A program made the position numbers and the translations under genes. From an uncultured Bacteriovoracaceae bacterium (GTDB lineage Bacteria > Bdellovibrionota > UBA2428), in assembly GCA_964636255.1 (NCBI GenBank), contig CAZWNW010000003.1, forward strand, positions 225,441 to 289,440: DNA of 64,000 nucleotides, in the 5' to 3' direction. A model generated the notes under the pieces. The model did not search any database. It saw only the letters and a program-made list of their open reading frames with translations, and was not told the origin of the DNA. This document shows positions 42,311 to 64,000 of this stretch, in pieces (positions within the stretch are counted from its first letter, which is position 1; each line of letters opens with the position of its first letter).

Positions 42311-42336
42311 AAAGTGACCGACGTCACTTTTTGACG
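42311..42336 (+). terminator. hairpin plus T-run after tRNA-Leu
   Basis: The hairpin is AAAGTGAC-cgac-GTCACTTTTT. Confidence 0.45.
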
Positions 42337-47060: not shown

Positions 47061-47306
47061 ATGAAAAAAGATATTCATCCCACAAACTACCGCCCCGTTG
47101 TTTTCCAGGACGTTTCCTGTGATTTTTCCTTCCTCACGCGCTCGGCTGTCCCTACCAAGGACAAGATTAAGTGGGAAGATGGCCAAGAATATCCCTTGGT
47201 GAAAGTGGAAATTTCTAGTCAGTCGCATCCCTTTTTCACTGGTAAACAGCGTCTTTTGGATACCGAAGGACGCGTTGATAAATTCAACAAAAAGTACCGT
47301 CGTTAG
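47061..47306 (+). CDS. rpmE2: 50S ribosomal protein L31 type B (non-zinc-ribbon paralog)
   Basis: The N-terminus is [15 protein letters not shown]. The C-terminus is HPFFTGKQ. Only one Cys is present, so the CxxC pairs are absent. Confidence 0.85.
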
Positions 47307-47417
47307 ATTAAACGCTTTAAGAGGCTCAGTGGACCCTGGAATTCCCAAGAATTCCGGGGTTTTTTGTGTCTGCGAATCTGCTTCACTCGCAGTCTGAAAT
47401 TGACTATGGGAGAGGGC

Positions 47418-48314: not shown

Positions 48315-48332
48315 TTGCTCAACGGGTGCATT

Positions 48333-48890: not shown

Positions 48891-48891
48891 T

Positions 48892-50256
48892 TTATTGAAA
48901 AAAATCTGGGGACGAGTCGAAATCCCCAAAGTCAAAAGATAATTGTCCGCGAATTACGATGTCACGAAAGAGATTCATGTCATGGGTTTCACGGCCATGG
49001 GAATCGACAATGTTGGGCAGGCGTAAGAGTGTGAAGGATCGGAATCCGAACTGAGACATGTTGTTTCGAATGTTTTCATAGGCTCTCCGGTAGCCAAAGA
49101 TCGGCAGCGCATTTTCACCGTTCAAAACGACGCCGACTTCGCGAGCGATTGTCGAAACCTCGTGCACAAGTCCCTGGGGCGAACTGTAATTGGGGTGGCC
49201 TGAATTTTCATCGAGTTCAAGACAGGTGAAAGTCAATTCGAGATTCAGTGCGCGCATGGCCGAGAGAATGCTTCGATATTCCATATAACCAGTCGCATAT
49301 TCAGCCGAGTGAGGCATCTCCGGATTGGTGAATTGCCAGTGAAGCCCTGCGATCTTTGCTCCCAATTTTACTTTAAACTTGGGCAGCAAGTTTTCATGGG
49401 CTGCTCGGCTCATGTTTTTCATGTGTTCCAAAAGTGAACCTTGGTACCAGAGCATAAAATCGCGACCATACGCACTTCGTATTCCCGTTCGAAAAAATTG
49501 ATCACCGTCGGTGGGGGGACCGATCTGCTCCCATGATGTAAGAGCACTATTCCAGGCGCGATTGAGCTGATCTAGTGATTGGCCGTACTTATGTCGTAAA
49601 GTGTCCTGAAAGCTGCGAATCGCTAGGGGCGAGTGGGCTTGAATACGGCCCGGCTCGGGATAGCGCCAGCCCGAGGCAGCGTTATAGGAAGGGTAGCGCA
49701 GTTCACCAGCAGGACCCATGCTGATGTAGACTTTTTGAATGATGTCGCGAAAGTCTTGAAAGTGATCGCCGAAGGAGGCGAAGGCCTCGCCATATTGTTC
49801 GTAAGCGCGGCCAAACCAGGGTGCAATGTATTCACCATTCTCGAAACCGTTTTGGTCGCGATAAACCATATTGATACGACCGCCCAGTTGCCAAACCCAA
49901 GAGGGAAGGGGAACATTGCAGTCATCACCCACATTGCCACCGCATTGATGGAAAGAGAGAATCGGAGTCCATTTGAGTCCCTCATCACGAAGGACTTGGG
50001 CGTATTGGCGGTAGTAGTCCCAATCAAAGAGATTGTCGCCGCGCGCTTCGAAATCACCCCACCAGATATCCGTAGTGACTCCGGCCACACCGTTTCTTTT
50101 GAGGGTTTTCAGTTGCTCGCGAAATGAATGCCAATTCTGGATTTTCGTCAATGGCATCATGACGTAGATTTCCGCTGCGAAAGACTGCGCCGAGATCAGA
50201 AATAGAAAACAGGAAAGAAATTTCCTGTGAAAAATATTTGTCAGAGCCCCACTCAT
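48892..50256 (-). CDS. secreted glycoside hydrolase family 14 beta-amylase-like protein
   Basis: The signal peptide is FLSCFLFLISAQSFAAE. GH14 hallmarks are IYVMMPL, DIWWGDFE, ILSFHQCGGNVGDDCNVPLPSWVW, GPAGELRYPSY and GLHWQF. Confidence 0.7.
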   Translation of the reverse strand: MSGALTNIFHRKFLSCFLFLISAQSFAAEIYVMMPLTKIQNWHSFREQLKTLKRNGVAGVTTDIWWGDFEARGDNLFDWDYYRQYAQVLRDEGLKWTPILSFHQCGGNVGDDCNVPLPSWVWQLGGRINMVYRDQNGFENGEYIAPWFGRAYEQYGEAFASFGDHFQDFRDIIQKVYISMGPAGELRYPSYNAASGWRYPEPGRIQAHSPLAIRSFQDTLRHKYGQSLDQLNRAWNSALTSWEQIGPPTDGDQFFRTGIRSAYGRDFMLWYQGSLLEHMKNMSRAAHENLLPKFKVKLGAKIAGLHWQFTNPEMPHSAEYATGYMEYRSILSAMRALNLELTFTCLELDENSGHPNYSSPQGLVHEVSTIAREVGVVLNGENALPIFGYRRAYENIRNNMSQFGFRSFTLLRLPNIVDSHGRETHDMNLFRDIVIRGQLSFDFGDFDSSPDFFQ

Positions 50257-50289
50257 GGCCAGTTGTTAAATTACGATTTTGCCCCGAGG

Positions 50290-51630
50290 TCAACGTCTTC
50301 GCCACTGATTGGCAAGTTCAAGAGCGGCCTCGAAATTTACCACGCCCTCTGTGGTCGAGCGGCCTGTCAGGCTGGGAACACGGACGACGCTTTCTTCGAT
50401 GATCCTCCGCACTTCTGAGGCGAAAAGATGTGGGTGTGCCACGCGGATGCGGGAGGCCAGCGCGGCAACAAAGGGCGCCGCCATTGAAGTGCCGCTCATG
50501 GGAAACTGATCACCGCCTGGGATTCGCGATAGAATATCAACACCCCAGGCTCCCACATTGACTGATTGAGCGCCAAAATTCGAAAAATAGGCGATTTGTC
50601 CCAGAGGGTCGACCGCCAGGACGGTGATGACATTTGGAAACTGCGTGGACAAACTTGCAGGCAGTGCGGCTTCCTGATCGAGATTGGCGCCGCGATTTCC
50701 GGCGGCCACGACAAAGAGAGTCTCGGGATGTTGGCTGAAGAGGCGTCTCCAACGTTCCTCCTCGTAGCGGAAAAGATTGTTTACAAAAAACTCGAAATTT
50801 TTCTGTTGAAGAGGATTTCTCGGGCTATTTGCTCTGAGCATATGCCGCTTTAGATGAGCGAGCCAAAGTCCTTCGGCTTGGATCCGGATCTCTTCGCGGC
50901 TGATGCTGCCGAAGCTGAGGTTCGCGACCGCTGGTCGTGTGGCCGACATGTAGCGTGTAAGAATATCGGCCTGCTGAAATGATTTTTTCGCGAGCGTTCT
51001 TAATACCGCCACCGTTTTTTCTTTGTCATCAAAGATACTTCCCGTATTGAGGTGCTGAAGCTCGGCGCTTGCAAAATTTTGCCTCAAATCGTGAGATGCA
51101 CTTTGAATGTTGGCTGCAAGAATGCGTGTTTTTTCTGCAGAATATTGGGCGATGATTCCGGCAATGTGTGTTCCATGTCCTAGCTCCCCGACTTCCATCA
51201 GAAGTTTTCGCCGGTCAGCTCTTTGTAAAAAGCGAGCGCTTTCTGCGTTTCCCTGTGATTTTGCCCAGACATGGGCGCTGAGTTCCTGAATCTCTAAACG
51301 TCTGCTACGAAAAAAATCAGAAATCCATTCTGGAAGGTGCTCTGGTGAATTCGAAATGATGTTCCAGCCGGACAAATCATCGACAAAGCCGTTACCATCA
51401 TCATCAAGTCCCCCACGACCGGAAAGTTCGGCGGCATTCGTGTCCCGTTTCAGACGAAGTTCCATCGACGCGGTGAAGTCGACAGCCTGGTCAACAACGA
51501 GAACTCGATGACTGATTTGGCTTCCCTCTCCGAAGCCAATCCCCCCAAGGGCGAGGAGCCCAATCCCGATGGTGCGGGACAGGGCTCTCACCCCCGTCAC
51601 ACCCCTCTCTCTCATGAAAAATGAACTCAT
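50290..51630 (-). CDS. secreted S8 subtilisin-family serine peptidase
   Basis: The His motif is GHGTHIAGIIA, the Ser motif is GTSMAAPFVAALAS and the Asn region is VVAAGNRG. The N-terminal signal is ALSRTIGIGLLALGG. Confidence 0.85.
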   Translation of the reverse strand: MSSFFMRERGVTGVRALSRTIGIGLLALGGIGFGEGSQISHRVLVVDQAVDFTASMELRLKRDTNAAELSGRGGLDDDGNGFVDDLSGWNIISNSPEHLPEWISDFFRSRRLEIQELSAHVWAKSQGNAESARFLQRADRRKLLMEVGELGHGTHIAGIIAQYSAEKTRILAANIQSASHDLRQNFASAELQHLNTGSIFDDKEKTVAVLRTLAKKSFQQADILTRYMSATRPAVANLSFGSISREEIRIQAEGLWLAHLKRHMLRANSPRNPLQQKNFEFFVNNLFRYEEERWRRLFSQHPETLFVVAAGNRGANLDQEAALPASLSTQFPNVITVLAVDPLGQIAYFSNFGAQSVNVGAWGVDILSRIPGGDQFPMSGTSMAAPFVAALASRIRVAHPHLFASEVRRIIEESVVRVPSLTGRSTTEGVVNFEAALELANQWRRR

Positions 51631-51732
51631 CACGATTTCAGGGCCATGAAGAGTTAAAAGCTCTTAAAGACGATCTCTAATAATTCGGCATCGTGTCAAG
51701 TTTTTGCTTTTCTTGTTTTTAGGCTCTCGACT

Positions 51733-52422
51733 ATGCTCGCGCCTACTTCAATGTTTGGTTTATCAGAGCAGGAAATCATCGAGTTCTTCAGGCAATCAGC
51801 CTACAGCCCGTGGTCGGTCTACATAACCATTATTTCTCTGATGTACGCCAGTAGTTTTGGTCTTCCTCTTCCAGAAGAAGTTCCCCTAATCGGCGCAGGA
51901 CTTGTGGGGCACATTGCGCATAATCCACACCTCTATCCACCCCCAACACCGGATGCGGTGGCCGTAAATCTCTATGTGCTGGCCAGCGTTTGCCTCTTTG
52001 CCGTCTTTTCTAGTGATCTACTCATCTTTTTTCTCGGGCGATACATGGGAAATCGTTTTCATTCGAGTGCCCGTTTCAAACGAATAACGGATGGTGAAAA
52101 TTATAAACGCATTCAGGCGCGCATCCGTCGAAATGGGGCTTGGGCGAGCGGCGTTTTTCGCTTCACCCCGGGCTTACGCTTTCCTGGCCATTTGGCCTGT
52201 GGGGCATTTGGTATTCCTTTTTGGAAATTTTGCGCCATCGATGGAACGGCGGCGCTGTTGACTGTTCCTACTCAAATTCTTCTTGTGGGTTTTTACGGAG
52301 ATACAATTCTCCGCAACATGAAGATGTTTAAATTTTTTCTCTTAGGTGCTTTGATCATTTTTATTGTTGTGAAGGTCGTCGGGCGCTTTTCTCGTAAAAG
52401 CAATCCGGTCGGGGCCGGATGA
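51733..52422 (+). CDS. DedA/VTT-domain membrane protein
   Basis: It has the GLPLPEEVPLIGAG motif and four hydrophobic segments. Confidence 0.65.
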   Translation: MLAPTSMFGLSEQEIIEFFRQSAYSPWSVYITIISLMYASSFGLPLPEEVPLIGAGLVGHIAHNPHLYPPPTPDAVAVNLYVLASVCLFAVFSSDLLIFFLGRYMGNRFHSSARFKRITDGENYKRIQARIRRNGAWASGVFRFTPGLRFPGHLACGAFGIPFWKFCAIDGTAALLTVPTQILLVGFYGDTILRNMKMFKFFLLGALIIFIVVKVVGRFSRKSNPVGAG

Positions 52423-53441
52423 TCTGGAAATTCTTCCTACGTATTCTTTTTCTCTTTGACGCCGAACGAGTTCATGAATTTTCTGCGCAGCTCTTGGAAT
52501 TTTTGGGGCGATTTTTCCCCCGCACGCTTCGATATCTTGCCAGCGCTCGGGCCCTTGGTCCAGAATCCGCGCGCGATCAGCCGCTGCGAGTAGCCGGACT
52601 TGAGTTTTGGGGTCCCTTAGGCTTGGCCGCAGGCTTCGATAAAAACGGCAGAATGCTCGGTGCTTTGTCGCAGATGGGTTTTTCATTTGTCGAAGTTGGG
52701 ACAGTCACTCCCCGGGCACAGCCTGGAAATGAAAAGCCGCGGCTCTTTCGAATCCCAGAAGAAGAGGCTCTCTTTAATCGCATGGGCTTCAATAACGAAG
52801 GAAGCGATGCCTTGAAATCGCGTCTGCGGGAATTTCAGAAACGAAAGCCGTGGAATTTTCGTGTGGGTATAAATTTAGGAAAGAACAAGGATACGCCGCC
52901 CGAGATGGCGGTAAACGACTACGTATTACTCGCGGAAGATTTAGCAGAATATGCGGATTATCTTGTCATCAATGTCAGTTCGCCGAATACGCCGGGCCTC
53001 CGCAACCTGCAGAGTATCGAAAGTTTGGAGCAGTTACTGCGTGCAACCCGCGGAGCTATAGTGCGCAGCGGATTTTCGCGGCCCCTCTTTCTAAAGCTCG
53101 CCCCTGAACTGGAGCCTGACTTTGTCCAGGAAGTTGCCGAAAAACTTCCGAGCTGGGGCGGCAGCGGATTAATTCTGACCAACACGCTCGCAAGCCAATT
53201 CAAAAATCTCAGCGGTGGATTAAGTGGAGGTCCACTGAAGATTAGATCAAGAGAGATTCTTAAAGCTCTCCGTCGCGTTTCCGATATCCCGGTGATTTCA
53301 GTGGGTGGAATTGATTCACTCGCAGAGGCCAATAAGCGACTGGATCTGGGTGCGAATCTTATACAAATTTATTCGGCGTGGATTTATCGTGGCCCCCGTT
53401 TTCCAGCGAGCATTGCCGCTGGTTTGCGTCGTAAGCCTTAG
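52419..53441 (+). CDS. pyrD: dihydroorotate dehydrogenase (quinone), class 2
   Basis: Motifs are GLEFWGPLGLAAGFDKNG, FSFVEVGTVTPRAQPGNEKPRLFR, MGFNNEG, INVSSPNTPGLRNLQ and a C-terminal ISVGGI. Its ATG overlaps the DedA stop. Confidence 0.9.
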   Translation: MIWKFFLRILFLFDAERVHEFSAQLLEFLGRFFPRTLRYLASARALGPESARDQPLRVAGLEFWGPLGLAAGFDKNGRMLGALSQMGFSFVEVGTVTPRAQPGNEKPRLFRIPEEEALFNRMGFNNEGSDALKSRLREFQKRKPWNFRVGINLGKNKDTPPEMAVNDYVLLAEDLAEYADYLVINVSSPNTPGLRNLQSIESLEQLLRATRGAIVRSGFSRPLFLKLAPELEPDFVQEVAEKLPSWGGSGLILTNTLASQFKNLSGGLSGGPLKIRSREILKALRRVSDIPVISVGGIDSLAEANKRLDLGANLIQIYSAWIYRGPRFPASIAAGLRRKP

Positions 53442-53527
53442 TTTTCACGGACTTTCTATGGTGTGCCCATCTGCTCTCCCCTAATCTCCCTGGTCCGTGG
53501 AATCGAGATTCTGTAAAACACGATCAT

Positions 53528-54025
53528 ATGAAGATTCAAAAACGGATTTCAATGGCATTCACTTTGGGACTCTGCCTTTCCGTCGCTGCTTGGGCCGGAA
53601 GCTCCACCTATCGATTAAATCCCGTCAAGGAACACAGGTACTCTTCTGAGCTGGTGGAACTTTTAAATGGACTGAGCGGTGAATCCGTTGTCTCCATTCG
53701 TGCCAAGTCTGAATGGAAGAAGAGATTTAAAGGAGTCCAGGCGCCGATCTATCTGGAAGACGGTCTCATAGAATTCCAAAGCCCCCTGAACCGCGACAAA
53801 GGTTACGTGGTGACGGCTGAAATTACGCTTGACGATCAAGAGCGTAGCACTTTCTTGGAATCAACTTCCATGGGCGAAAGAGAATGCGAGATTCTCAAAT
53901 CCTTGGTGGGCGCTCTCTCAACGAATAAGATCTCTCTTCAGGCAAATTGTAAGGCGCAGGGACTTAGTCGAAAGGGTACAAAGCAAAGCACGATGAGTGT
54001 GAAAGTGCTTTACTTGGGCCGTTGA
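53528..54025 (+). CDS. secreted hypothetical protein
   Basis: The signal peptide is MKIQKRISMAFTLGLCLSVAAWAGS. Confidence 0.5.
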   Translation: MKIQKRISMAFTLGLCLSVAAWAGSSTYRLNPVKEHRYSSELVELLNGLSGESVVSIRAKSEWKKRFKGVQAPIYLEDGLIEFQSPLNRDKGYVVTAEITLDDQERSTFLESTSMGERECEILKSLVGALSTNKISLQANCKAQGLSRKGTKQSTMSVKVLYLGR

Positions 54026-54098
54026 AGCCGAGTGGAAGTTTTTCACCGCATCATCTAATCTTTCTGAAAGCTTCAAGTTTCTTCCACAAGACCCTATA

Positions 54099-55622
54099 AT
54101 GAAGAGCATGCGTCATCGAGGGCAGACACGTGGTCAGAAATTCGTATTTGCCTTGGCCATCGTGGCACAGATTCGAATGAATCCGGGAAAAAAAGATGTC
54201 TTTATCAAGTTGCCCGGAACCGAGAACTTCGAAAAATTGAACGCGAACGTTTCGAATCTAGCAGAGAATTCCGTTGTTGTGTTGGGAGACAATACGTCGG
54301 TCTATGTCGACTTTGCTGATCCGGCCTTGCCGGATGTCTTGGTGCTTTCGGACAGTGTTTTTCGTCTGAATGCAAGTGATGCAAACTCAGTGGAATTGCA
54401 TTTGCAATCCGGGTCGGCGACGATCGTGGAAGACATCAGCGCTCTTAGTAAAAGTCCAAAGCCGCAGTTTAAAGCTAAGAAGGTATATTTCAAAAAAGGC
54501 GGATCTCCGCGCATCGATTTGGCCCAAAAGAAATCCGAGCTACTACGGAAGCGCGAGCGAATGGTTGTAGAGATACCGAAATCCGAAGATGAAAAAAGCG
54601 CAGCCAAAGCAACTTCGCCGATTGCGGCACCTGCACCTGAACCCATAACTCCGACACCAAAGGCTGAGCTTAGTGCGCCAGTCGCTGCACCTGTCCCGAA
54701 AAGCGTTGCTCCGAAAGTTTCTGTTGATCAAGCTGAAGATGTTGAGTTCAAAGCCAAGGCTGCTGAAGCTAAAGCGGCTGAACGCCGACGCCTCGCGGAT
54801 GAGAAAAGGGAAAAAAGAAGATTGGCCCGCGAAGAAGCGAAAAAGCTTCGAGCAGAGCGCTTGGCTCGCGAGAAATTAGCAAAAGAAAAACAGTCTCCTC
54901 CTGAAACGAAGAAACAAAATCCCAAAAATCTGCAAACTGTCGAATCACGACGAAAATTAAGGCCTGCGGAAAAAACTGAGCCTCCGATTACAGATTCTGC
55001 AAGTGAGTCGGAGGGAATTTGGGAGATTCAAATTGGAAGCGGAATTTCCTACCAATCTTTGAAGGGCGAAAACGATCTTCGTAAACTGGATGCCTCATTG
55101 ACAGCTTTTCCGATTCATCTCGGACTGAAGCGCATCAAGCTTCCTTTCGGATTCGATTTTGCCCTCGCGGCTATGTCGACTCCGCTTCCGGGCCTGGACT
55201 CAACAGCTGAGAAGCTCAGTTTGGATTCGCGTTTGCTGGGCACCTGGAGGTCATTCGGCTTCGGTCTTCGATACTTGCGTGAAGCGGTTTACGTCAGCGC
55301 AAGTGATGGGTTGAACGAGTGGGATTCCTCTGCGCAGTGGGGACTCAGTCTTTCCTATCAGGTTTTGGCACCCCAAGCCGATCAACGATTTTCTTATGAG
55401 CTTCGACCTATAATAGATCTGCTGAAGAGCCGCTTTAATTTCGAATTGCGAGCCGCTTTGCAGTATTTGCCCGCTAGCTGGCCGAACTATGTCTTCGGCC
55501 TGAGTCTCCAGCCTCGATTTCAGATTTGGAACGGCGAGGCGACCGTTTTCGGGGAAAAACGCGATTTTAAAGAAAAACGCTGGGGGCTGACGAGTCTACT
55601 GACCGTGGGGAGGCAATTTTAG
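54099..55622 (+). CDS. hypothetical envelope protein: an N-terminal FecR-like beta-rich region (tentative), a Pro/Ala/Lys-rich charged helical linker (TolA/TonB-like) and a C-terminal beta-barrel-like domain ending in Phe
   Basis: The linker is PAPEPITPTPKAELSAPVAAPVPKS followed by KAAEAKAAERRRLADEKREKRRLAREEAKKLRAERLAREKLAKEK. The C-terminal region has alternating hydrophobic residues and ends TVGRQF. Confidence 0.5.
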   Translation: MKSMRHRGQTRGQKFVFALAIVAQIRMNPGKKDVFIKLPGTENFEKLNANVSNLAENSVVVLGDNTSVYVDFADPALPDVLVLSDSVFRLNASDANSVELHLQSGSATIVEDISALSKSPKPQFKAKKVYFKKGGSPRIDLAQKKSELLRKRERMVVEIPKSEDEKSAAKATSPIAAPAPEPITPTPKAELSAPVAAPVPKSVAPKVSVDQAEDVEFKAKAAEAKAAERRRLADEKREKRRLAREEAKKLRAERLAREKLAKEKQSPPETKKQNPKNLQTVESRRKLRPAEKTEPPITDSASESEGIWEIQIGSGISYQSLKGENDLRKLDASLTAFPIHLGLKRIKLPFGFDFALAAMSTPLPGLDSTAEKLSLDSRLLGTWRSFGFGLRYLREAVYVSASDGLNEWDSSAQWGLSLSYQVLAPQADQRFSYELRPIIDLLKSRFNFELRAALQYLPASWPNYVFGLSLQPRFQIWNGEATVFGEKRDFKEKRWGLTSLLTVGRQF

Positions 55623-55699
55623 CTCCCCTCAGAATTCCGGCAAATTACTAACACCTGAATTTATGCCGAGCCCGGTCACTTTCCGTTAAAATTAGCTCC

Positions 55700-56635
55700 A
55701 TGCGCCTGAATTTTCTCGCATTTCTTTTTTTGGCTGCGAGCGCTGCGTATTCTGCTCCGGCCTTTCACGTTGTGGGAATATCAGAAACGGACGCCAACTT
55801 TGTTAGTGAATCGGGGCGGGCTATCAGCGTGCAGATCTATCTCGAAGACGCCCCTGCGGACACAGTGACTTTCAGCATAACGGCGGATATTCCCGATCAA
55901 ATCGAAGTTTTGCCTGATGCAACTCTTGTTTTTCAAACGACAGAATTCGGTGAGGAGAACGCAAAAACAATTGTTCTGCGGGGTTTGGATAACGATGCGG
56001 CGGAAGCAAACGAGGACGTTATCCTCAGTATAGATCCCGCAGCATCCGCGGATCTGACTTATCAAGCCTTGGCGGCCCAAGATTTTACATTGCAAAACGA
56101 AAACAATGATCCGATTTCTGGAAATCAAAATCCTTCTGCCGTTGTTCTAATCAGTCCCTCCTCTGGAGTGACGGGTCTGACAACGGCGACTGATTTTGTG
56201 ATCGAGCATCCTTTTGATCCCGACAGCGATGAGCTCAAGCTGACGCTTTGTTATGACCAGGTAAATACTTTCGATCAAAGCCCGCGTTGTTTAGATCGCG
56301 ACGAGGATTCACTGGAGCAGATCGCTTTGCGTCAGGGTTCTGTTTGGGGGCAGAGCCAAGTCGCTTGGTCCTTTTCGGGATTGTTGATGCTTGCAGCGCT
56401 TTTCTTGCGATTCCGCCGAACACTGCTGATGCTGCTGGCGCTCGGATTTATTGGGGCTTGCGGAAGCAAAAAACTTCTGGAAAGTTTTCGCATTCAACCG
56501 CGCGCGCGCTGGACCCTAAATTTGGATGAATTGTCAGCCAACCAAACTTACTACTGGAAAGTTTTTGTCAGCGACTCCAAAGGTGGAATTGTCACCAGTG
56601 AAGTGCGGAGCTTTCATAGCGGAGCGAATCCGTGA
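55700..56635 (+). CDS. secreted hypothetical protein with an acidic Calx-beta-like region and internal hydrophobic segments
   Basis: The signal peptide is MRLNFLAFLFLAASAAYSAPA. It has Asp-rich repeats. The internal hydrophobic segments are LLMLAALFLRFRR and LLMLLALGFIGACGS. Confidence 0.45.
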   Translation: MRLNFLAFLFLAASAAYSAPAFHVVGISETDANFVSESGRAISVQIYLEDAPADTVTFSITADIPDQIEVLPDATLVFQTTEFGEENAKTIVLRGLDNDAAEANEDVILSIDPAASADLTYQALAAQDFTLQNENNDPISGNQNPSAVVLISPSSGVTGLTTATDFVIEHPFDPDSDELKLTLCYDQVNTFDQSPRCLDRDEDSLEQIALRQGSVWGQSQVAWSFSGLLMLAALFLRFRRTLLMLLALGFIGACGSKKLLESFRIQPRARWTLNLDELSANQTYYWKVFVSDSKGGIVTSEVRSFHSGANP

Positions 56636-57393
56636 GAAATTATGCTTTGCTCCCTTTTTTGCTTCTATCAATGCCGCTATGGGCACAACAACAGTCCCTG
56701 CCAGCTGCGAAGAAGGAGTCGACCGAGGCTCCACTTGGAGAGGCACAGGCTGTTCAAGAGGTGCGGCGTTTTGTCCAGGAACGCGAGAAATTGAAAGAGT
56801 CCCAGGGAAGTTATTCCGAAACTTCGGCCGCGGGTCCGCCCGTGATTGTTCCCGTTAAAGAAGAAAAGAAAGCTGAGACGAAATCCGACCCCAGTATTTT
56901 TCGACCTAAACGATACTGGGGGCTGCGCGCCGGGGCTTTTTTGCCCGGTGGAGAACTGGGCAGACATACAGGAAGTGGTTGGGGCTTTGGTGGACTACTG
57001 CGAAGCGATTTAGATGCTCGTTTTGAAGTGCAGTTCAATGTGGATTGGATTTACGCTCTCAATTCAAAAAGTGATCAGAAAAATTCTTTGTATCTTTTAC
57101 CTTGGTCGGTGGGGGTACGATTTCCGAAGTCGCTCCCCTTAGTGGCCCGCACTCAAATTGTCCTCGAGCCTTCGCTGGGTGGAGTTTTTTGGTGGTCAAA
57201 AGCTACTCGTTTTTTGGACAACAAGAAGAACCAAGGAAAAGGCTTTGATTTTCTGGCTTCATTTGCTCTGTCCCTCGAATACGAGTGGCAGGAAAATTCA
57301 TTCTTTGCCTTGCCCCTGCGCTATCAGTACGGAGCCGGTTACATCAATCACGCTTGGTGGACATTCGGACTGGAGTGGACGAAAAAGTTTTAG
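56632..57393 (+). CDS. outer-membrane beta-barrel protein (OmpA/OmpW-like porin fold, tentative)
   Basis: The signal peptide is RNYALLPFLLLSMPLWAQQ. Alternating-hydrophobic beta-strand patterns run through the protein. The C-terminus is LEWTKKF, with a terminal Phe. Its GTG start overlaps the upstream stop. Confidence 0.55.
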   Translation: MRNYALLPFLLLSMPLWAQQQSLPAAKKESTEAPLGEAQAVQEVRRFVQEREKLKESQGSYSETSAAGPPVIVPVKEEKKAETKSDPSIFRPKRYWGLRAGAFLPGGELGRHTGSGWGFGGLLRSDLDARFEVQFNVDWIYALNSKSDQKNSLYLLPWSVGVRFPKSLPLVARTQIVLEPSLGGVFWWSKATRFLDNKKNQGKGFDFLASFALSLEYEWQENSFFALPLRYQYGAGYINHAWWTFGLEWTKKF

Positions 57394-57785
57394 AAATCGG
57401 ATTTAGAAAATCGGGCCTTGCCTTGATTTTTTCCCGGGGGATCCAAAACGCTAAGATCCAGCAGAAGTTTTTCGCCGATCCAATCAGCCAAAGTTGTGTG
57501 GTCTGCGAGGTCGTCATCGGTCAACGGGTGAAGGAGCGCCCGAAGTCCACTTTCAAGGATTAATTCCTTTATAGATTCCAAATCCCTCTCTAAGAAGTGA
57601 ATTTCAAACTGAGGGATGGGGTGGGGGCCGACGGGAGCATCTCTGAGTCCGCCCACATAACTGAGTCCGACTGGGTCCTTTCGGCGCAGCCTCTCTTGAA
57701 AAATTTTTTGCAGGCTGATTGCCTTCTCTCTCTCTTCTGCAGTGTAATAAATGTGGGCATGAAAAGGGTTCTTATCTTTAGTCAT
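57390..57785 (-). CDS. DOPA 4,5-dioxygenase-family (YgiD-like) protein
   Basis: 131 aa. The N-terminus is NPFHAHIYYTAEEREKA, characteristic of the DOPA-dioxygenase family. It overlaps the upstream GDPD gene by 8 nt. Confidence 0.6.
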   Translation of the reverse strand: MTKDKNPFHAHIYYTAEEREKAISLQKIFQERLRRKDPVGLSYVGGLRDAPVGPHPIPQFEIHFLERDLESIKELILESGLRALLHPLTDDDLADHTTLADWIGEKLLLDLSVLDPPGKNQGKARFSKSDF

Positions 57786-58533
57786 TTGATGATCCCTTCA
57801 GTTCAGTCATTTTCTCGGGTAGATCGGTGACAATTCCGTCTGCTCCCAAACGCAACAGTTCCTGGGCAACATCAGGATCGTTCACCGTCCAATAATGGAC
57901 CTCGATGCCCAGGCTATGAGCGGCCGTGATCAATTGTTGCGAAGCAAGCGAGATCTTTTCATATTGAATTGGAATCTGAAAGGCTTGAGCATCCATGGAC
58001 AGTGGCTGCAATCTTCCTTGCTGAAGAGCCTGTAAGAATACAGCCATTTCCCCAAACGAGGCACTGGTCGGAATTCCACTTTTCAAGGCGCGAAATCGTC
58101 GCATGATTTCGTCCTTTTCAGCCGCAATCAGTGTGCGCTCGGCAGCGCCTGTCTTTTGGAGAACTCGGAGAACTTCGATTTCTGTTCCTATTTGATCGTC
58201 TTTGATTTCAATATTCCAAAAGGCTTCTGGAAGGGATTCGATAGCTTCTTCCAGGCTCGGAATCGAGAGGGGACTTGAAAAAACGCGATAATCTTTCAAC
58301 TCCTGAAAGTTGAGTTCCGCAATCCTTTGCTTCACTCCGCAGCTACGCATGAGGTCGGCATCGTGGTGAAGGACCGGAACCCGATCGCGTGTCATCCACA
58401 AGTCCGTTTCTAAATATGGACTGAACTTGAGTGCGGCCTCGAAAGCCGAGAGGGTGTTTTCAGGGAATCGAGAGGAAGATCCACGGTGCGCTAAAATGCG
58501 CGGCTTTGGCAGTGCAAAGTATTGGGATTTCAT
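57778..58533 (-). CDS. glycerophosphodiester phosphodiesterase
   Basis: The GDPD active site region is ILAHRGSSSRFPENTLSAFEAA ... ETDLWMTRDRVPVLHHD. ATG at 58533. The ORF track starts at TTG 58614. Confidence 0.8.
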   Translation of the reverse strand: MKSQYFALPKPRILAHRGSSSRFPENTLSAFEAALKFSPYLETDLWMTRDRVPVLHHDADLMRSCGVKQRIAELNFQELKDYRVFSSPLSIPSLEEAIESLPEAFWNIEIKDDQIGTEIEVLRVLQKTGAAERTLIAAEKDEIMRRFRALKSGIPTSASFGEMAVFLQALQQGRLQPLSMDAQAFQIPIQYEKISLASQQLITAAHSLGIEVHYWTVNDPDVAQELLRLGADGIVTDLPEKMTELKGSSND

Positions 58534-58599
58534 AGAGGGAATTCTGCCACGAAAGGGCTTTCGTGGACAGCGACTTCCACGGCATGATATTAGGACGCT

Positions 58600-59433
58600 G
58601 TGACAGAGAGTCAAAAGGCCTATTTAAACATCTCCGCTTATCGATTTTTGCCCATCGAATCGCCGGAGCTTCTGAAATCAAATCTAGAAGATTTGTGTGT
58701 CCGTCATGGTGTGCGCGGCACTATTTTGGTGGCGCCGGAAGGTTTGAATCTGGCGTTGTCGGCATTGGAAGCTACAATGCGAGCTTGGATAAAAGACTTC
58801 GAAGCCATGGGCTACGGAGGTTTTTGGTATAAAGAATCTTACTCCGATCATCTGCCCTTCGATCGACTTCAGGTTAAACATAAACGGGAAATCATCAGTG
58901 TTCGTAACGAAAAATTGGATCCCCTGAGCCGCAGAGCTAAAAAAATTAGCCCGGATGAGTTGAAGGCCTGGCTTGATGAGGGACGTGATTTCACGCTGCT
59001 CGATACGCGTAATATTTATGAAGTCCGGATGGGAACTTTCGAAAAGGCGCGTGATCTGGGGATCGAAGAATTTCAGGATTTTGAAAAACGTCTGCATGAT
59101 AATCGTGAAGCCCTCGGGCCGAAGAAACCTATGGTGATGTTTTGTACGGGTGGAATTCGTTGTGAAAAGGCAGCCTTCGCCGCCAGCGATGCGGGTTTTG
59201 AAGAAGTTTATCAACTCGAGGGTGGAGTCCTCAACTATTTCGAAAAGTGTGGTGGTGATCATTGGAAAGGCGAATGCTTTGTTTTTGACAAACGGGTTGG
59301 AGTTTTGCCTAATCTAGAGGAATCGAAAAGTATTTTGTGTTGGGCTTGCGGCGAACCGTTGGGAGTCGAAGATCAAAAGTCTGAGGCCTATGTTTACAAG
59401 GAGTCCTGTCCTTATTGCGTAAAAAAGGACTAG
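58600..59433 (+). CDS. trhO: rhodanese-domain tRNA uridine(34) hydroxylase (TrhO/YceA family)
   Basis: The N-terminus is LNISAYRFL. The rhodanese active-site Cys is in MFCTGGIRCEKA. The C-terminal Cys pairs are CWACGE and CPYC. The start is GTG. Confidence 0.75.
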   Translation: MTESQKAYLNISAYRFLPIESPELLKSNLEDLCVRHGVRGTILVAPEGLNLALSALEATMRAWIKDFEAMGYGGFWYKESYSDHLPFDRLQVKHKREIISVRNEKLDPLSRRAKKISPDELKAWLDEGRDFTLLDTRNIYEVRMGTFEKARDLGIEEFQDFEKRLHDNREALGPKKPMVMFCTGGIRCEKAAFAASDAGFEEVYQLEGGVLNYFEKCGGDHWKGECFVFDKRVGVLPNLEESKSILCWACGEPLGVEDQKSEAYVYKESCPYCVKKD

Positions 59434-59436
59434 CCA

Positions 59437-61623
59437 TCAAGCTAGGAAGTTGAGTAGCTTTTCGATCAACGCATCTCTTGAAAACGGCTTCGACAAGTAA
59501 TCGCTAAATCCGAAAGAGAGACAGCGTTCCTCTTCATCTTTCATTGCAAAGGCTGTCACGGCTAATATGGGTTTTGTGTATCCTTGAGACCTTAAGCGTT
59601 CTGTAACCTCGTAACCACTCATGCCTTCAAGTTGTATGTCGAGCAGAAGCAAGTCGAAATTTTCATTTAAAGCCTTTTGGACTGCTAGATCTCCACTTTC
59701 GGTAAAAATTAACTCTACTCCAGTAGTGCTAAGAAATTCCTTTAAGAGATGCTGATTGTCAGCCATATCTTCTGCGGCAAGAATACGTTTTCCTTGTAGG
59801 CTAGAAAGCTTACTGGGCGTCGTAGATTTTGGGACGACTTTGGAATCATCATGTGCACTGAGCGTCGTTGCTGGAAGACTTAGTAAAAACTCACTACCTT
59901 CGCCGGGGCAACTGAAGGCTAGCACCAGGTCTCCTCCCATTCGGTGCGCCAATTGTCTTGAAATATAGAGACCTAGGCCCGTTCCAGGATTTGGGAATCC
60001 TTTCGTCTTCAACTTGGAAAAGGGTTGAAACAATTCCTGCTGCTTTTCCTTTGGGATACCCAGCCCAAAGTCCTTTACTGAAATTTGAATTCGAGGTGTG
60101 GCCTGGTCGTAACTGGAGCAATTCGCCTGGATTTCCACGGTTTTTCCAACTGAAAACTTAGCAGCGTTGTTCAATTAATTGATTAGAATCTGCCGCAGTC
60201 TCAATGGATCAAGACAGACTTCGGCTCTATCTTTACTCACTGGCTTGTAGACAATTTTAACCGACTGAACAGAGGATTTGTCTCGAGTGAGGTTCACAAT
60301 CTCTTCGATTTCATCGTTCAAATTGACATTTCTGTTTTGAATTTGAATCTTATCTAAATTCATAGCAGATAAATCGAGTAGATCATTGATCAACGAATGC
60401 AAGTGTTGCCCGTTTCGTTCAATGGCTTCGAGCCATCGCTTAGCATTGTCTGACAGAGGTTCATTGCTTTTTCTAAGCAGTTCAGAAAAACCCAGAATAC
60501 TTCCTAGAGGTGTTCTCAGTTCATGGCTAATATTCGCAAGAAATGCGTCTTTAGTTCGGTTCGCAAATTCTGCTTTCTCTTTGGCTTCTTTGAGTTCACT
60601 TTCAATTCTCTTTTGTTCAGATATATCGCGAGAGACGCCGACTAGATAGTCTACCTGACCCGAGTTGCCGTTTCGGAAGACGGGACTCAGCGTGGTGCTA
60701 AAGTAATGAGTCTCACCTGTGGGCATCTTGTCCTTACTTTCAATGGCTTCAGAAGAACCGCTTTGAATAACTCTGCGGTAGATTTCGGCATAATGATCCC
60801 CGGCCTCTTGCCCCAATAAATCCCAAACAGTGCGACCTAGAATGACATCATAGCCCCCAACGTTTTGGGAAGACTTTTTGTTGACGTGGCGAAAAGTCAT
60901 ATCTCTATCGACGACCCAAATGGCTTCAGTTGCTGAATCAAAAACAGCTTTTAATTTGGCGCTTGCCTGACGGGCCATCTCTTCGGCGTTTTTTCTGGTG
61001 AGAATCTCTTTCTCAAGTTTTTGAATGATCGTCTCGTTTTTTTCGATGACGCGTCTTTCTGCCAGAATCAGATACAAAACTGCGGCTGCGATTGTGAGTC
61101 CCGTGGAATAAAATATGGATGATGCGATCAACTTTGAAGCAGGTTTTGAAATTTCGACCCAAGGACCTAATTGAAATCCAGAAAGAAATAAAAACAAGTA
61201 AAGTAACAGCGGCAGCAATAGCCCAAGAAAAATCGAAACTCTTTCTCGCCAAGTAAAAAGCACAAAAGGGAAGACGATGACAGCTAAATAATAATAGTAG
61301 ATTCCTGAATCAGGCCCAGTTGCCACTGAAAAGAACGTGACAGCCAAGCTTCCTGTTAGAACAGGCAAAAGACGCGCAAAGTGAATCCAGCCTACAGACG
61401 ATGAAAGTGGGACAAACAAATATCCAGCGACGACAAAAAGTACCATGCCTGCCAATTCGATTGAGCCAAGAAGCCAAAAAATAGCTGTGTAAGGTAGCGT
61501 GATGAAGACAATGGAAATCGAAAGCTGATTGGCAAGTCGTAAACGCCTAGAAAGCAGGGGATCGGAAACATGTTGGGATCCCATGGATGAAATCTTTTCC
61601 CAGATGCTCCTGACGTTGGTCAT
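59437..61623 (-). pseudogene. hybrid sensor histidine kinase (TM sensor - PAS - HisKA - HATPase - REC) interrupted by an in-frame TAA at 60175-60177 inside the ATP-binding N-box
   Basis: The upstream part ends ...LRLRQILIN, then TAA. The same frame continues LNNAAKFSVGK..., rebuilding the N-box QILIN[L]LNNAAKFS. The H-box is ISHELRTPLGSILGFSELL. G-boxes and the REC domain (ILAAEDMADN...LLLDIQLEGMSG) are downstream. TAA is one substitution from TTA (Leu). Confidence 0.7.
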
Positions 61624-61715
61624 GCAGTAAACTTATCATCGAAATTGGAGGCCTGAAAGGCGCAGGAGAATGCTGTCTTATAAATAAACAAATTGTCTAT
61701 GGAGATCGATTTAGT

Positions 61716-62411
61716 TTAGCGATTAAAGCGATAGCCTACTCCGCGAATTGTGTGAAAGTGCTGAGGATTTTCAGGATCAATCTCCAGATGCTTTCTGAGC
61801 CGGCTCATGAATAGGTCGGCAGTTCGGGTTTTTGGCAAAAGCTGAAAGCCCCAGACATTTTTCAATAGTTCTTCGCGAGAGATTACGGTCTTTTCACGTT
61901 TGATCAGATAGGTCGCTAGCCGGTATTCAAGCTTCGTAAGCTGCACCCAGCCCTTGGGGGCCAGGATGCGAAAATCCCCGTCTTTCATCGTCCAATGCAC
62001 ATCGGGATCGTCTTCCTTCGTTGCGGGTAGCCGTCGAGAGTAGGCGTGCAATTTGGCTGTAAGCTCCTCAAGCGAAAACGGTTTCGGCAAATAGTCATCT
62101 GCGCCCGCCTTGAGTCCGTCGACGCGTTCGTCGACACTGCCGCGCGCGCTGAGAATGATAATCACGGCGCTCGAACCATGTTGCCGAAAGGCGCGGCATA
62201 GATCCAAGCCTTCGCCATCGGGCAGCATGCGGTCCAAAAAAATTAGGTCATAGGCTTGGGGGTCATCAAAGAATAACTCACGAGCTTTGGTTGCAGTCTC
62301 TGCGACTTCTACAGGCACTTTTAGGCGATCTAAGGCCGCTGTAAGCGTGGCCCGAAGATGGTCTTCGTCCTCGACCAAGAGCGCCCGTAGAAAGTTGAGG
62401 GGGTTTTTCAT
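61716..62411 (-). CDS. OmpR/PhoB-family response regulator
   Basis: REC has LLVEDEDH, the acceptor Asp in LIFLDRMLPDGEG, and KPF. The winged-helix C-terminus is LTKLEYRLATYL...HTIRGVGYRF. Its ATG overlaps the kinase stop. Confidence 0.85.
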   Translation of the reverse strand: MKNPLNFLRALLVEDEDHLRATLTAALDRLKVPVEVAETATKARELFFDDPQAYDLIFLDRMLPDGEGLDLCRAFRQHGSSAVIIILSARGSVDERVDGLKAGADDYLPKPFSLEELTAKLHAYSRRLPATKEDDPDVHWTMKDGDFRILAPKGWVQLTKLEYRLATYLIKREKTVISREELLKNVWGFQLLPKTRTADLFMSRLRKHLEIDPENPQHFHTIRGVGYRFNR

Positions 62412-63376
62412 TGCTGTAGAGGTCCTTCTAATTGAAAGGTCGCGCCGTGACCGTTGCCGTTGCTGAAGGCACGAATTTTAAGTTTGAGTGTGCGCGCGGC
62501 ACTTCGCACTAAATAAAGTCCCAATCCGCTGCCGGCCGATCTGTGAGAATAATTTGGAGCACGATAAAAACGGCGAAAAATCTTTTTTGCCTGTTTAGGA
62601 TCAAAGCCCAGCCCGCCATCAATAAATTTCAACTTCCATCGAGGTCGATTTTTTGAATCCGTGTCGACTGAAAGTACGACTTCCAGTTTCGCTTGGCGAT
62701 TGCCAGAAAACTTGCGTGCATTGTCCACAAGATTATTGGCTATTAAGTCCAGGTAATTGAAACTTCCTAGAATCCAAATTTCTTCTTCGGGCACTTGAAC
62801 CTTCAATTCACCATTGCCGCCCAAAATTGCCCGCCACTGTTCCGATCGTTGTAGGACCCAGCTGCGAAGGTCTACGGGTTCGACTACGGGTCGGTCCTGC
62901 ACATTCTCCCATCGAGAAGCCGTTAAGAGTCGCTCGATCTCCACTTTGAGTCGCTGCAACTCACTTCGATGAGAGAGCCAAAGTTGGTCGGTCTTGGATG
63001 ATTTCGGATACTCTGCTTCCAAGAGGTTGGAGCTGAGTTCCAGTGTGGCCAGCGGAGATTTCAATTCATGGCTGATGTGGGCAAGAAATTCGGATTGAGC
63101 TTGGTTAGCGCGCATTTCGCGAAAAAGTTTGAGGGTGACAAACACGATCAGCACCAAGAGCGAGAGAAAGCCTAATGTTCCGAGGCCCAAGGTCCACCAG
63201 GGATAACTTCCCCACTCATCTTGGGGCACCTGCCCAAGCTGATTGCGTGCGATCTGAATCATTCTTTCGTAGTAGCGAACCACTACAAGGTTCCAGGTCG
63301 TGCCAAGCGTGCCGACCAAGAGCAACAGCGCAATGCTCATCAGGAGCCAAAGCCATTTTTGATTGCGCCATTTCAT
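62408..63376 (-). CDS. sensor histidine kinase cognate to the OmpR-type regulator
   Basis: It has two N-terminal TM segments. The H-box is FLAHISHELKSPLATL, the N-box is NLVDNARKFS and the G-boxes are FIDGGLGF / GSGLGLYLV. Confidence 0.85.
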   Translation of the reverse strand: MKWRNQKWLWLLMSIALLLLVGTLGTTWNLVVVRYYERMIQIARNQLGQVPQDEWGSYPWWTLGLGTLGFLSLLVLIVFVTLKLFREMRANQAQSEFLAHISHELKSPLATLELSSNLLEAEYPKSSKTDQLWLSHRSELQRLKVEIERLLTASRWENVQDRPVVEPVDLRSWVLQRSEQWRAILGGNGELKVQVPEEEIWILGSFNYLDLIANNLVDNARKFSGNRQAKLEVVLSVDTDSKNRPRWKLKFIDGGLGFDPKQAKKIFRRFYRAPNYSHRSAGSGLGLYLVRSAARTLKLKIRAFSNGNGHGATFQLEGPLQQ

Positions 63377-63438
63377 AGAGCTTTAAAATAGTTCTCTTCG
63401 CCTCGGCACTCAAGGGAAGGGATCGGTCAGAGTGATCT

Positions 63439-64000
63439 TTATTTGCTGATGGCGTAGTGATCTTTGTCGCGGGAATCTTTGAAAATTTCTTCCAAAAGCG
63501 AACGCGCCAAATAGGAAGATTTTACTGTCCAATATTTTTCATGGACCGTTAGAATGGAGATGGCAATTTTTCGGTCTTGGTCATAGCCATAGCCTACAAA
63601 CCAATCGCATTTACCGTTCGGATTTTTTCCAGTCAGCGACCCCGTCTTTCCGCCGAGTGAAGCGGAAAAATCATCATTCTGCACCAGTGATTTAAAAAAG
63701 CGACGTGAAGTCCCGCGCGTAACAGTTTCACGCATCAAGAGTTTCATTTGTTCCGCTGAATAAGGGGAGATGACTTGTCCAAGAATTTTAGTTTTGCCTT
63801 CGTACTGCGGGCGATTGAAGGCGTCTGATATGCGCTTGACCACATAGGGAGCAACAAGACTGCCCTCGTTGACAATCGCGGCCGCGATCATGGCGCCGTG
63901 AACCGGGCTGAGTGTATTTAACTGCGTAAAGCCGCTGGCCGTCTCAGCGAGTTCGTAATCGGCGTTTTCGCTGATTTCACTACCGGAAATTTCCAAGGCT
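63439..64000 (-). CDS. penicillin-binding protein / transpeptidase-domain protein, 3' portion. The gene continues beyond the window edge.
   Basis: The KTG motif is in GGKTGSLTG. Upstream of it is GFTQLNTLSPVHGAMIAAAIVNEG, typical of PBP transpeptidase domains. The reading frame is open to position 64000. Confidence 0.6.
   Translation of the reverse strand, partial: ALEISGSEISENADYELAETASGFTQLNTLSPVHGAMIAAAIVNEGSLVAPYVVKRISDAFNRPQYEGKTKILGQVISPYSAEQMKLLMRETVTRGTSRRFFKSLVQNDDFSASLGGKTGSLTGKNPNGKCDWFVGYGYDQDRKIAISILTVHEKYWTVKSSYLARSLLEEIFKDSRDKDHYAISK

What the first reader, a model, noticed from the sequence alone, without database searches (positions are those of the whole stretch)
59437..61623. 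Hybrid histidine kinase split by a single in-frame TAA inside its N-box
Two adjacent same-frame ORFs, 60178-61623 and 59437-60174, are separated only by TAA at 60175-60177. Reading through the stop restores a textbook HATPase N-box: QILIN-[stop]-LNNAAKFS. TAA is one transversion from TTA (Leu). This is therefore one TM-PAS-HisKA-HATPase-REC gene inactivated by a recent nonsense mutation, or a sequencing error, or an intended recoding event. It is not two genes. An intact OmpR-type two-component system lies immediately downstream.
Basis: seen in the sequence. Interest (0 to 1): 0.55.

Follow-up and report, generated by a model that had tools for sequence, protein, structure and literature searches.

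The report
Hybrid histidine kinase broken by stop
A single sensor-kinase gene in a Bdellovibrionota genome is cut in two by one premature TAA stop codon inside its ATP-binding domain; it is an ordinary, recently disabled (or mis-sequenced) accessory gene, not a new mechanism.

Summary
On the minus strand, ORFs 60178-61623 and 59437-60174 share a frame and are separated only by TAA (60175-60177), reading RLRQILIN*LNNAAKFS. With the stop read as Leu, the product is a 728-aa membrane-sensor(MASE7-like)-PAS-HisKA-HATPase_c-REC hybrid kinase, and the HATPase_c match spans the junction. All 119 core homologs are gapless there, with Leu in 104. Only Leu (TTA) is one base from TAA. The ten closest sensor-domain relatives are single-chain hybrid kinases, and P0122 aligns end to end (40% identity, E 2e-168). 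So it is one gene, not two.

Recoding is unlikely. TAA is the commonest ordinary stop in the window (24 of 55 ORFs). The context is UAA-U, the strongest bacterial terminator. There is no 3' RNA structure, and no homolog has a stop at this position.

New here: the gene is absent from the syntenic site in the closest relatives, where the UPF0176 gene abuts the OmpR regulator directly. It also has the lowest GC of 54 genes in the window. It is therefore a lineage-specific, probably acquired, accessory gene.

A real nonsense mutation cannot be told apart from a base-call or consensus error without reads. Interest is low.

The parts
59437..61623 (-). Whole interrupted hybrid histidine kinase gene: 728 codons plus the terminal TGA. 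The likely true start is the ATG at 61584-61582.
   Evidence: P0001 (469 aa) corresponds to a start at M14.
60175..60177 (-). Premature in-frame TAA at codon 483, followed by T (UAA-U). Homologs have Leu here, so the inferred ancestral codon is TTA.
   Evidence: Column census L 104 / I 9 / V 5 / M 1. TTA makes up 15 of 98 Leu codons in this gene.
60178..61623 (-). N-terminal fragment: membrane sensor, PAS, HisKA and the first 11 residues of HATPase_c. It is the only part present in the public protein collection (P0001).
61039..61554 (-). Multi-pass membrane sensor region, MASE7-like (residues about 24-195).
   Evidence: Pfam MASE7 scores 22.1-22.7 bits, below the 26.2 cutoff. Relatives found with residues 1-227 score 31-47 bits on MASE7.
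60607..60942 (-). PAS domain (PAS_4, residues 228-339).
   Evidence: E 5e-13.
60364..60552 (-). HisKA/DHp domain (residues 358-420) with an intact H-box, SHELRTPL.
   Evidence: E 2.5e-20; sequence.
59866..60210 (-). HATPase_c catalytic domain (residues 472-586), containing the stop. The N-box Asn (NNAAKFS), G1 (DFGLGI), F (FQPF) and G2 (GTGLGL) motifs are all intact.
   Evidence: invariant columns N11, N15, D47, G49, G51, G76, G78, G80 are all matched.
59455..59784 (-). C-terminal receiver (REC) domain, residues 614-723.
   Evidence: E 7.5e-23.
59437..60174 (-). C-terminal fragment. It is open from the TTG directly after the TAA, with no Shine-Dalgarno-like sequence upstream. It is not present as a protein in the public collection.
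59430..59445 (-). Terminator-like hairpin followed by a T-run, overlapping the natural TGA stop. No such site lies between the two fragments.
   Evidence: consensus scan only.
59377..61725 (.). Stretch with no counterpart in the syntenic locus of the closest relatives: about 2.35 kb here against about 0.12 kb in L063. It amounts to the hybrid kinase gene plus its 92-bp upstream spacer.
   Evidence: blastn collinearity; gene orders.
61716..63376 (-). Intact OmpR-type response regulator (61716-62411) and its histidine kinase (62408-63376, 4-bp overlap). They are transcriptionally upstream and are conserved in relatives without the hybrid kinase.
58600..59433 (+). UPF0176/rhodanese-family gene, convergent with the kinase and ending 3 bp from its stop. 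It is the left flank of the insertion. In relatives this gene overlaps the regulator gene directly.

Best explanation
This is one ancestral gene for a membrane-bound hybrid sensor histidine kinase (MASE7-like sensor, PAS, HisKA, HATPase_c, receiver). It carries a single T-to-A transversion that turned a TTA (Leu) codon in the N-box helix of the ATP-binding domain into TAA. As assembled, translation ends at codon 483. The product is a 469-482 aa membrane protein with PAS and DHp domains but no ATP-binding domain or receiver, so it cannot autophosphorylate. The downstream 245 codons are then an untranslated, still undecayed remnant. The gene is an accessory, probably horizontally acquired insertion between the UPF0176 gene and a conserved OmpR-type two-component operon. 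Recent loss of such a gene through a nonsense mutation is the expected fate of dispensable acquired genes. Shown: the single-gene origin, the one-base path to the consensus residue, the absence of the gene at the syntenic site in relatives, the compositional outlier status, and the intactness of every other motif. Inferred: that the base is real rather than an error, that the truncated product is inactive, and that the direction of the difference is gain here rather than loss elsewhere.
For: Searches show the in-frame TAA. In one search the HATPase_c match spans the junction (profile 2-110), and all five domains score like those of intact relatives. In one search all 119 homologs are gapless across the N-box, the stop column is L 104 / I 9 / V 5 / M 1, and only Leu (TTA) is one substitution from TAA. 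No homolog ends or starts near the junction (at least 253 residues before it and 239 after it); the ten closest relatives, picked by the sensor region alone, are all single-chain hybrid kinases, and P0122 aligns over residues 16-728 (40% identity, E 2e-168); the ATP-binding part of the C-fragment finds those same sensor-domain relatives (P0142, P0129, P0122) as its best matches, so both halves share one history. TAA is the normal and commonest stop (24 of 55 ORFs); other same-frame neighbouring pairs are complete separate genes; the syntenic loci of the closest relatives lack the gene; it has the lowest GC (0.436) and GC3 (0.421) of 54 genes, z about -2.5, and TTA is a frequent Leu codon in it. 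No second lesion exists anywhere in the 728 codons, which fits a very recent event.
Against: No reads and no second assembly of this strain are available, so the base itself is unverified. The only database copy is the same NCBI contig. The complete absence of further decay fits an error or a minority variant in a metagenome consensus equally well. The direction of the presence/absence difference (gain here versus loss in relatives) rests on two of three roughly equidistant lineages plus composition, not on a rooted tree. No flanking repeats or mobility genes mark an insertion.
Confidence: 0.62

Rival explanations
1. Sequencing, assembly or consensus artefact. The organism's gene is intact (TTA). 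The TAA is either a base-call error or a low-frequency variant that was fixed in the consensus of a metagenome-assembled or draft genome.
For: Exactly one base separates the sequence from a perfect consensus N-box. Nothing else in the gene is damaged. The source is a single NCBI contig of 383,738 bp from a lineage otherwise known from metagenome assemblies.
Against: Substitution errors are rare in short-read consensus assemblies (general knowledge). The site is not a homopolymer. No other domain-splitting stop appears among 55 ORFs in the 64 kb, so the assembly is not generally error-prone. Accessory genes of atypical composition are a priori likely to carry real disabling mutations.
Confidence: 0.25
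2. Functional truncation or split. The nonsense mutation is real, but the parts are still used. The TM-PAS-DHp fragment could act as a kinase-dead sensor, phosphatase or partner of another kinase. The C-fragment could be re-initiated at the UUG that directly follows UAA, giving a free receiver-containing protein.
For: UAA is directly followed by UUG. Another gene in the window, the REC protein at 13470, appears to start at a UUG directly after the UAA of its upstream neighbour. Shine-Dalgarno use in this genome looks weak in general. The C-fragment frame is still fully open.
Against: The break lies inside helix alpha-1 of the ATP-binding fold, not at a domain boundary. No homolog among 119 core hits and 10 sensor relatives is split there or anywhere near. 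The 13470 gene has a GGAG upstream, whereas the junction here has none. The C-fragment is not in the public protein collection. The split is not conserved in any lineage, so there is no evidence that selection maintains it.
Confidence: 0.07
3. Programmed recoding. The TAA is decoded, by readthrough or a suppressor tRNA, to give the full-length kinase at a regulated level.
For: Reading through restores a perfect N-box, and the downstream frame is intact.
Against: TAA terminates 24 of 55 ORFs in the window, including complete PdxS and NUDIX genes. The context is UAA-U, which PMC5289835 concludes is the most efficient bacterial termination signal. RNA 3' of the stop folds no better than shuffled sequence (z -0.34). 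The only tRNA in the window is tRNA-Leu(CAA). No homolog has a stop at this column. The known bacterial recoding systems, Sec and Pyl, use UGA and UAG rather than UAA (general knowledge).
Confidence: 0.03
4. Chimeric mis-assembly. Two different paralogous kinase genes were joined at the conserved N-box.
For: The N-box is the most conserved stretch among the many kinase paralogs. The window alone carries at least three other kinases.
Against: Both halves share the same unusually low GC, 0.431 and 0.447 against 0.489 for the window. P0122 is collinear over both halves with no indel at the junction. The ATP-binding part of the C-fragment independently picks the sensor-domain relatives as best hits. 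A mis-join would not be expected to create a stop by a single-base difference from consensus.
Confidence: 0.03

Closest known systems
Hybrid sensor histidine kinases of the HisKA/HATPase_c class with a C-terminal receiver (BarA/GacS, TorS, ArcB, LuxQ and RcsC types; solved cores 7z8n and HK853 3dge/2c2a)
   Same: The H-box, N/G1/F/G2 boxes and receiver occur in the same order. The core matches PDB 7z8n_A at E 3e-45 and HK853 at E 4e-37. The architecture is identical to the ten nearest relatives.
   Different: The reading frame is interrupted by TAA within the N-box helix, so no intact catalytic domain is encoded. No Hpt domain is present. The nearest full-length relative is only 40% identical.
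MASE7-domain membrane sensors (Pfam PF20967)
   Same: The N-terminal multi-pass membrane region aligns to MASE7, and its closest relatives score above the Pfam cutoff.
   Different: The protein's own score (22.1-22.7 bits) is below the 26.2-bit gathering score, so membership is only transitive. The signal it senses is unknown.
Bacterial pseudogenes created by a single nonsense mutation ('internal stop' pseudogenes in genome annotation)
   Same: There is a single in-frame stop inside a conserved domain, one base from the consensus codon. The gene is dispensable or accessory, and there is no conservation of the lesion.
   Different: There are no secondary lesions yet, so the event is very recent or not real. 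Only the N-terminal piece is catalogued as a protein in the public collection.
Programmed stop-codon readthrough or recoding (RF2 UGA-C autoregulation, Sec/UGA, Pyl/UAG)
   Same: The only shared feature is an in-frame stop with a coding-looking frame continuing beyond it.
   Different: The stop is UAA in the strongest termination context (UAA-U). There is no stimulatory structure, no conservation of the stop, and TAA is used as a normal stop throughout the window.

Membership tests
Hybrid sensor histidine kinase (HisKA + HATPase_c + REC) | DHp/HisKA domain with the phospho-accepting His in an H-box | tested here: met
   Pfam HisKA at residues 358-420, E 2.5e-20. SHELRTPL is present, and the H, E, R, T and P columns are at least 90% conserved in homologs.
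Hybrid sensor histidine kinase (HisKA + HATPase_c + REC) | ATP-binding domain motifs N, G1, F and G2 present | tested here: met
   NNAAKFS, DFGLGI, FQPF and GTGLGL all match the invariant columns N11, N15, D47, G49, G51, G76, G78 and G80 of the 120-sequence alignment.
Hybrid sensor histidine kinase (HisKA + HATPase_c + REC) | Kinase core and receiver encoded in one uninterrupted polypeptide | tested here: not met
   TAA at codon 483 lies inside the N-box. All 119 core homologs and all 10 sensor relatives are uninterrupted.
Hybrid sensor histidine kinase (HisKA + HATPase_c + REC) | C-terminal receiver domain with a phospho-accepting Asp | tested here: met
   Pfam Response_reg at residues 614-723, E 7.5e-23. 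The LLLLD motif, the T of AVTAFA and the K of SKP are present.
Hybrid sensor histidine kinase (HisKA + HATPase_c + REC) | Autokinase and phosphorelay activity | not testable with these tools
   This needs biochemistry. As encoded, the product lacks the ATP-binding domain.
MASE7 membrane sensor domain (PF20967) | Score at or above the Pfam gathering threshold (26.2 bits) | tested here: inconclusive
   The score is 22.1-22.7 bits, E about 1e-4. Relatives retrieved with residues 1-227 score 31-47 bits.
Nonsense-mutation pseudogene | In-frame stop at a position where homologs carry a conserved sense codon, reachable by one substitution | tested here: met
   The column is L 104 / I 9 / V 5 / M 1. 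TAA to TTA is a single change, and no other single change gives L, I, V or M.
Nonsense-mutation pseudogene | The stop is real in the organism's DNA | not testable with these tools
   No reads are available. There is only one assembly of this strain in the collections.
Nonsense-mutation pseudogene | Further decay (extra stops, frameshifts, loss of motifs) | tested here: not met
   No second lesion occurs in 728 codons, and domain scores equal those of intact relatives. This implies a very recent event or an artefact.
Programmed stop-codon readthrough / recoding | Leaky stop and context (typically UGA or UAG with a weak +4 base) | tested here: not met
   The stop is UAA followed by U. [quoted passage not shown]
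Programmed stop-codon readthrough / recoding | Stimulatory RNA structure 3' of the stop | tested here: not met
   MFE is -18 kcal/mol against a shuffle mean of -16.9, z -0.34.
Programmed stop-codon readthrough / recoding | The stop is conserved in homologs, or the codon is reassigned genome-wide | tested here: not met
   No homolog has a stop at this column. TAA ends 24 of 55 ORFs, including complete PdxS and NUDIX genes.
Naturally split (two-gene) kinase | Homologs that end after the H-box module and restart as a separate gene | tested here: not met
   Every homolog has at least 253 residues before and at least 239 residues after the junction column. The ten sensor-domain relatives are single chains of 567-903 aa.

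The most novel reading that the evidence does not exclude
The nonsense codon is real and tolerated because the pieces are used. A kinase-dead TM-PAS-DHp sensor fragment modulates another kinase (for instance the upstream OmpR-type pair or one of the neighbouring hybrid kinases). A receiver-containing C-fragment is produced by termination-reinitiation at the UAA-UUG junction. Together this would be a newly born split signalling module in a predatory-bacterium lineage.
Probability: 0.05. Interest if true: 0.45.

Novelty: new member of a known kind. Interest (0 to 1): 0.1.

Why it matters
It matters mainly for annotation. The two ORFs should be recorded as one interrupted gene (a pseudogene or a suspected error), not as a 'PAS sensor' plus a 'response regulator'. 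This prevents a spurious orphan regulator and a spurious kinase without an ATP-binding domain from entering two-component-system inventories of Bdellovibrionota. The synteny result adds a small evolutionary point: an accessory hybrid kinase with foreign-looking composition was inserted beside a conserved OmpR-type operon and is already disabled. That fits rapid turnover of acquired signalling genes. No new mechanism is implied.

Tried and rejected
1. Direct ortholog comparison across the junction was not possible. The word-indexed protein search, the genome-contig scan and the metagenome-contig scan gave only paralog-level hits of 40% identity or less, plus the strain's own N-fragment. The word-indexed search also missed the best relative, P0122, which only the exhaustive HMMER search with the sensor region recovered.

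2. Attempts to reach the source contig or an independent assembly of the same strain failed. Exact look-ups of P0001, the OmpR regulator and PdxS found nothing, so there is no read-level or second-assembly check of the base.

3. Genome-wide TAA reassignment is rejected. TAA is the commonest stop in the window, and other TAA-separated same-frame pairs are complete separate genes.

4. A readthrough-stimulating RNA structure is rejected. Rfam finds nothing in the region.

5. Insertion scars or mobile-element ends around the gene were sought. Only chance-level short repeats were found; for example, an 11-nt inverted pair is expected about once in 2.7 kb.

6. Other broken genes, as a gauge of assembly quality, were sought. 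Candidate overlapping ORF pairs (36444-37939, 43065-44395, 46172-47441) have no Pfam matches, so this test was uninformative.

7. P0122's genomic context is not syntenic with the window, so P0122 is the closest relative rather than a positional ortholog.

8. A literature search for MASE7 returned nothing relevant.

Full report
**Observation.** On the minus strand the sequence reads ...CTG CGG CAG ATT CTA ATC AAT TAA TTG AAC AAC GCT GCT AAG TTT TCA..., which translates to LRQILIN*LNNAAKFS. TAA occupies window 60175-60177. It separates a 482-codon ORF (60178-61623) from a 245-codon open frame (59440-60174, with TGA at 59437-59439) in the same frame. The coordinates and the quoted peptide in the finding are exact. 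The true start is probably the second ATG (61584-61582, M14). The only public copy of the N-fragment (P0001) is 469 aa, and the best relative aligns from residue 16 onward.

**One gene, not two.**
- With the stop read as Leu, Pfam finds a weak MASE7-like membrane region, PAS_4 (228-339), HisKA (358-420), HATPase_c (472-586, profile positions 2-110 of 111, E 1.4e-21) and Response_reg (614-723). The C-fragment alone matches HATPase_c only from profile position 15, so the domain is physically cut by the stop.
- I aligned the junction segment with the 119 best core homologs. All 119 are gapless across the N-box. The column holding the stop is Leu in 104, Ile in 9, Val in 5 and Met in 1. The flanking invariant Asn residues are present. 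Of all single-base neighbours of TAA, only TTA (Leu) gives an observed residue.
- No homolog ends or begins near this position. The minimum is 253 residues before it and 239 after it.
- An exhaustive HMMER search used only the lineage-specific sensor region, residues 1-227. The ten closest proteins it retrieved are all single chains of 567-903 aa carrying HisKA, HATPase_c and a receiver. Eight of them also have a PAS domain, and seven match MASE7.
- The closest relative, P0122 (697 aa), aligns with the merged reading over residues 16-728 at 40% identity (E 2e-168). It reads DPLRLRQILLNLVSNAVKFS across the junction.
- As an independent check, the ATP-binding part of the C-fragment on its own picks sensor-domain relatives (P0142, P0129, P0122) as its best hits among 268 candidates. 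Both halves also share the same low GC. The two halves therefore have one history, and a chimeric join of two paralogs is unlikely.
- Solved kinase cores (7z8n, HK853 3dge/2c2a) are likewise continuous across this position.

**Not recoding.**
- TAA ends 24 of 55 ORFs in the window, against 18 TAG and 13 TGA.
- The other places where two long open frames are separated by a single TAA are complete, unrelated genes: PdxS/PdxT and NUDIX/REC.
- The stop is followed by U. [quoted passage not shown]
- The 98 nt downstream of the stop fold no better than shuffled sequence (z -0.34).
- The only tRNA in the window is tRNA-Leu(CAA), and Rfam finds nothing else.
- The stop is not conserved in any homolog.

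**Could the C-fragment be made separately?**
- A TTG follows the TAA directly. At least one other gene in the window (the REC protein at 13470) seems to start at such a TAA-TTG junction, but it has a GGAG 9-12 nt upstream, whereas the kinase junction has none.
- The break lies within the first helix of the ATP-binding fold, not at a domain boundary.
- A terminator-like hairpin sits only after the natural TGA (59445-59430), and none lies between the fragments.
- I regard independent expression as possible in principle but unsupported.

**Genomic and evolutionary context (new).**
- The organism belongs to Bdellovibrionota. A conserved NuoB-NuoD fusion protein in the window has relatives at 90-93% identity. 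Some weaker hits in the same list (about 60-80% identical) are named as Bdellovibrionales or Bdellovibrionota MAGs.
- The gene abutting the kinase's 3' end (UPF0176/rhodanese family, 58600-59433) has orthologs at 67-70% identity.
- In the contigs that carry two of them (L063-L065 for P0394, and two JGI contigs for P0393), the order is GDPD, UPF0176, then directly the OmpR-type regulator; the contigs that extend further continue with its kinase and a penicillin-binding protein. The UPF0176 and regulator genes overlap convergently. A third, short JGI contig (P0392) has a different neighbour downstream of UPF0176.
- blastn shows window 47414-63957 collinear with L063. However, window 59376-61726 (2.35 kb) corresponds to only about 120 bp in L063, and tblastn finds no remnant of the hybrid kinase there.
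- The three lineages are roughly equidistant at 67-70% identity.
- The hybrid kinase has the lowest GC (0.436) and GC3 (0.421) of 54 genes in the window, z about -2.5.
- The most economical reading is that the kinase is a lineage-specific, probably acquired accessory gene. It was inserted next to a conserved OmpR-type operon that does not depend on it.
- No repeats or mobility genes mark the insertion, so the mechanism of acquisition is unknown.
- The finding's phrase 'immediately downstream' needs correcting. The OmpR-type pair is transcriptionally upstream, separated by a 92-bp spacer.

**Mechanism and likelihoods.**
- Best explanation (0.62): a real, very recent T-to-A nonsense mutation has disabled an accessory hybrid kinase. 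The cell would make at most a TM-PAS-DHp stub that lacks the catalytic and receiver domains.
- Second (0.25): the base is a sequencing or consensus artefact, or a minority variant. Nothing in the sequence can exclude this, because the gene is otherwise flawless and only one assembly of the strain exists.
- Minor alternatives: a functional split or truncation (0.07), programmed recoding (0.03) and chimeric assembly (0.03).

**Comparison with known systems and novelty.**
- By architecture this works like the BarA/TorS/ArcB-type hybrid kinases, and it belongs to a MASE7-PAS subfamily. As encoded, it fails the defining feature of an uninterrupted kinase core.
- The phenomenon is an 'internal stop' pseudogene or a suspected error, which is routine in bacterial genomes.
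- Its value is for annotation: merge the two ORFs and flag the gene as disrupted. It is also a small example of turnover of acquired signalling genes.
- Interest is low (0.1). The most novel reading not excluded, a newly split and still-used signalling module, has a probability of about 0.05.

Noticed in passing
window 39885-41591 (-): A single 568-aa ORF fuses NuoB (residues about 4-166) directly to NuoD (about 175-568) with no NuoC segment. The best NCBIfam model is the NuoB/C/D trifunctional type, matched in two stretches. The same 568-aa fusion is conserved at 77-93% identity in many metagenomic relatives, a few of them named as Bdellovibrionales or Bdellovibrionota MAGs. I did not look for where NuoC is encoded.
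   Followed up: partly
window 19888-22749 (+) and 22839-24662 (+): Two further hybrid histidine kinases (953 and 607 aa) lie in tandem. Both are intact, with TorS/BarA/LuxQ-like cores. They show that the genome carries uninterrupted paralogs of the same class.
   Followed up: no
window 13468-13473 (-): The NUDIX gene ends in TAA. The next codon, TTG, is the only possible start of the downstream REC-domain protein (MASPSRVLIVDDE...), and a GGAG lies 9-12 nt upstream. This is a genuine TAA-TTG stop-start junction of the same form as the one inside the broken kinase.
   Followed up: partly
window 63377-63438 versus L063 12642-13997: The relative L063 carries a 390-aa gene with no Pfam match between the OmpR-system kinase and the penicillin-binding protein. 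The window has only about 60 bp there. This is a second accessory-gene difference in the same neighbourhood.
   Followed up: no
window 53528-57393 versus L063 7262-9018: This stretch has no nucleotide match to the otherwise collinear relative. It holds several ORFs in the window, only one of which I scanned for domains, so gene content appears to differ here too.
   Followed up: no
window 43872-44474, 46973-47363 and 36448-36832: These are the three largest gaps in the mechanical gene map (603, 391 and 385 bp). The ORFs overlapping them have no Pfam match, and Rfam finds nothing there.
   Followed up: partly
window 42195-42281 (+): tRNA-Leu(CAA) is the only RNA gene detected in the window. It lies inside the mechanical ORF 42058-42453 (-), which is therefore probably not a gene.
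   Followed up: no
L062 2316-5589: The closest full-length relative of the kinase (P0122) overlaps by 17 bp a downstream gene with a guanylate/adenylate-cyclase domain. YajQ and PPK2 genes follow it. This is a different, nucleotide-signalling-rich context from the window.
   Followed up: no
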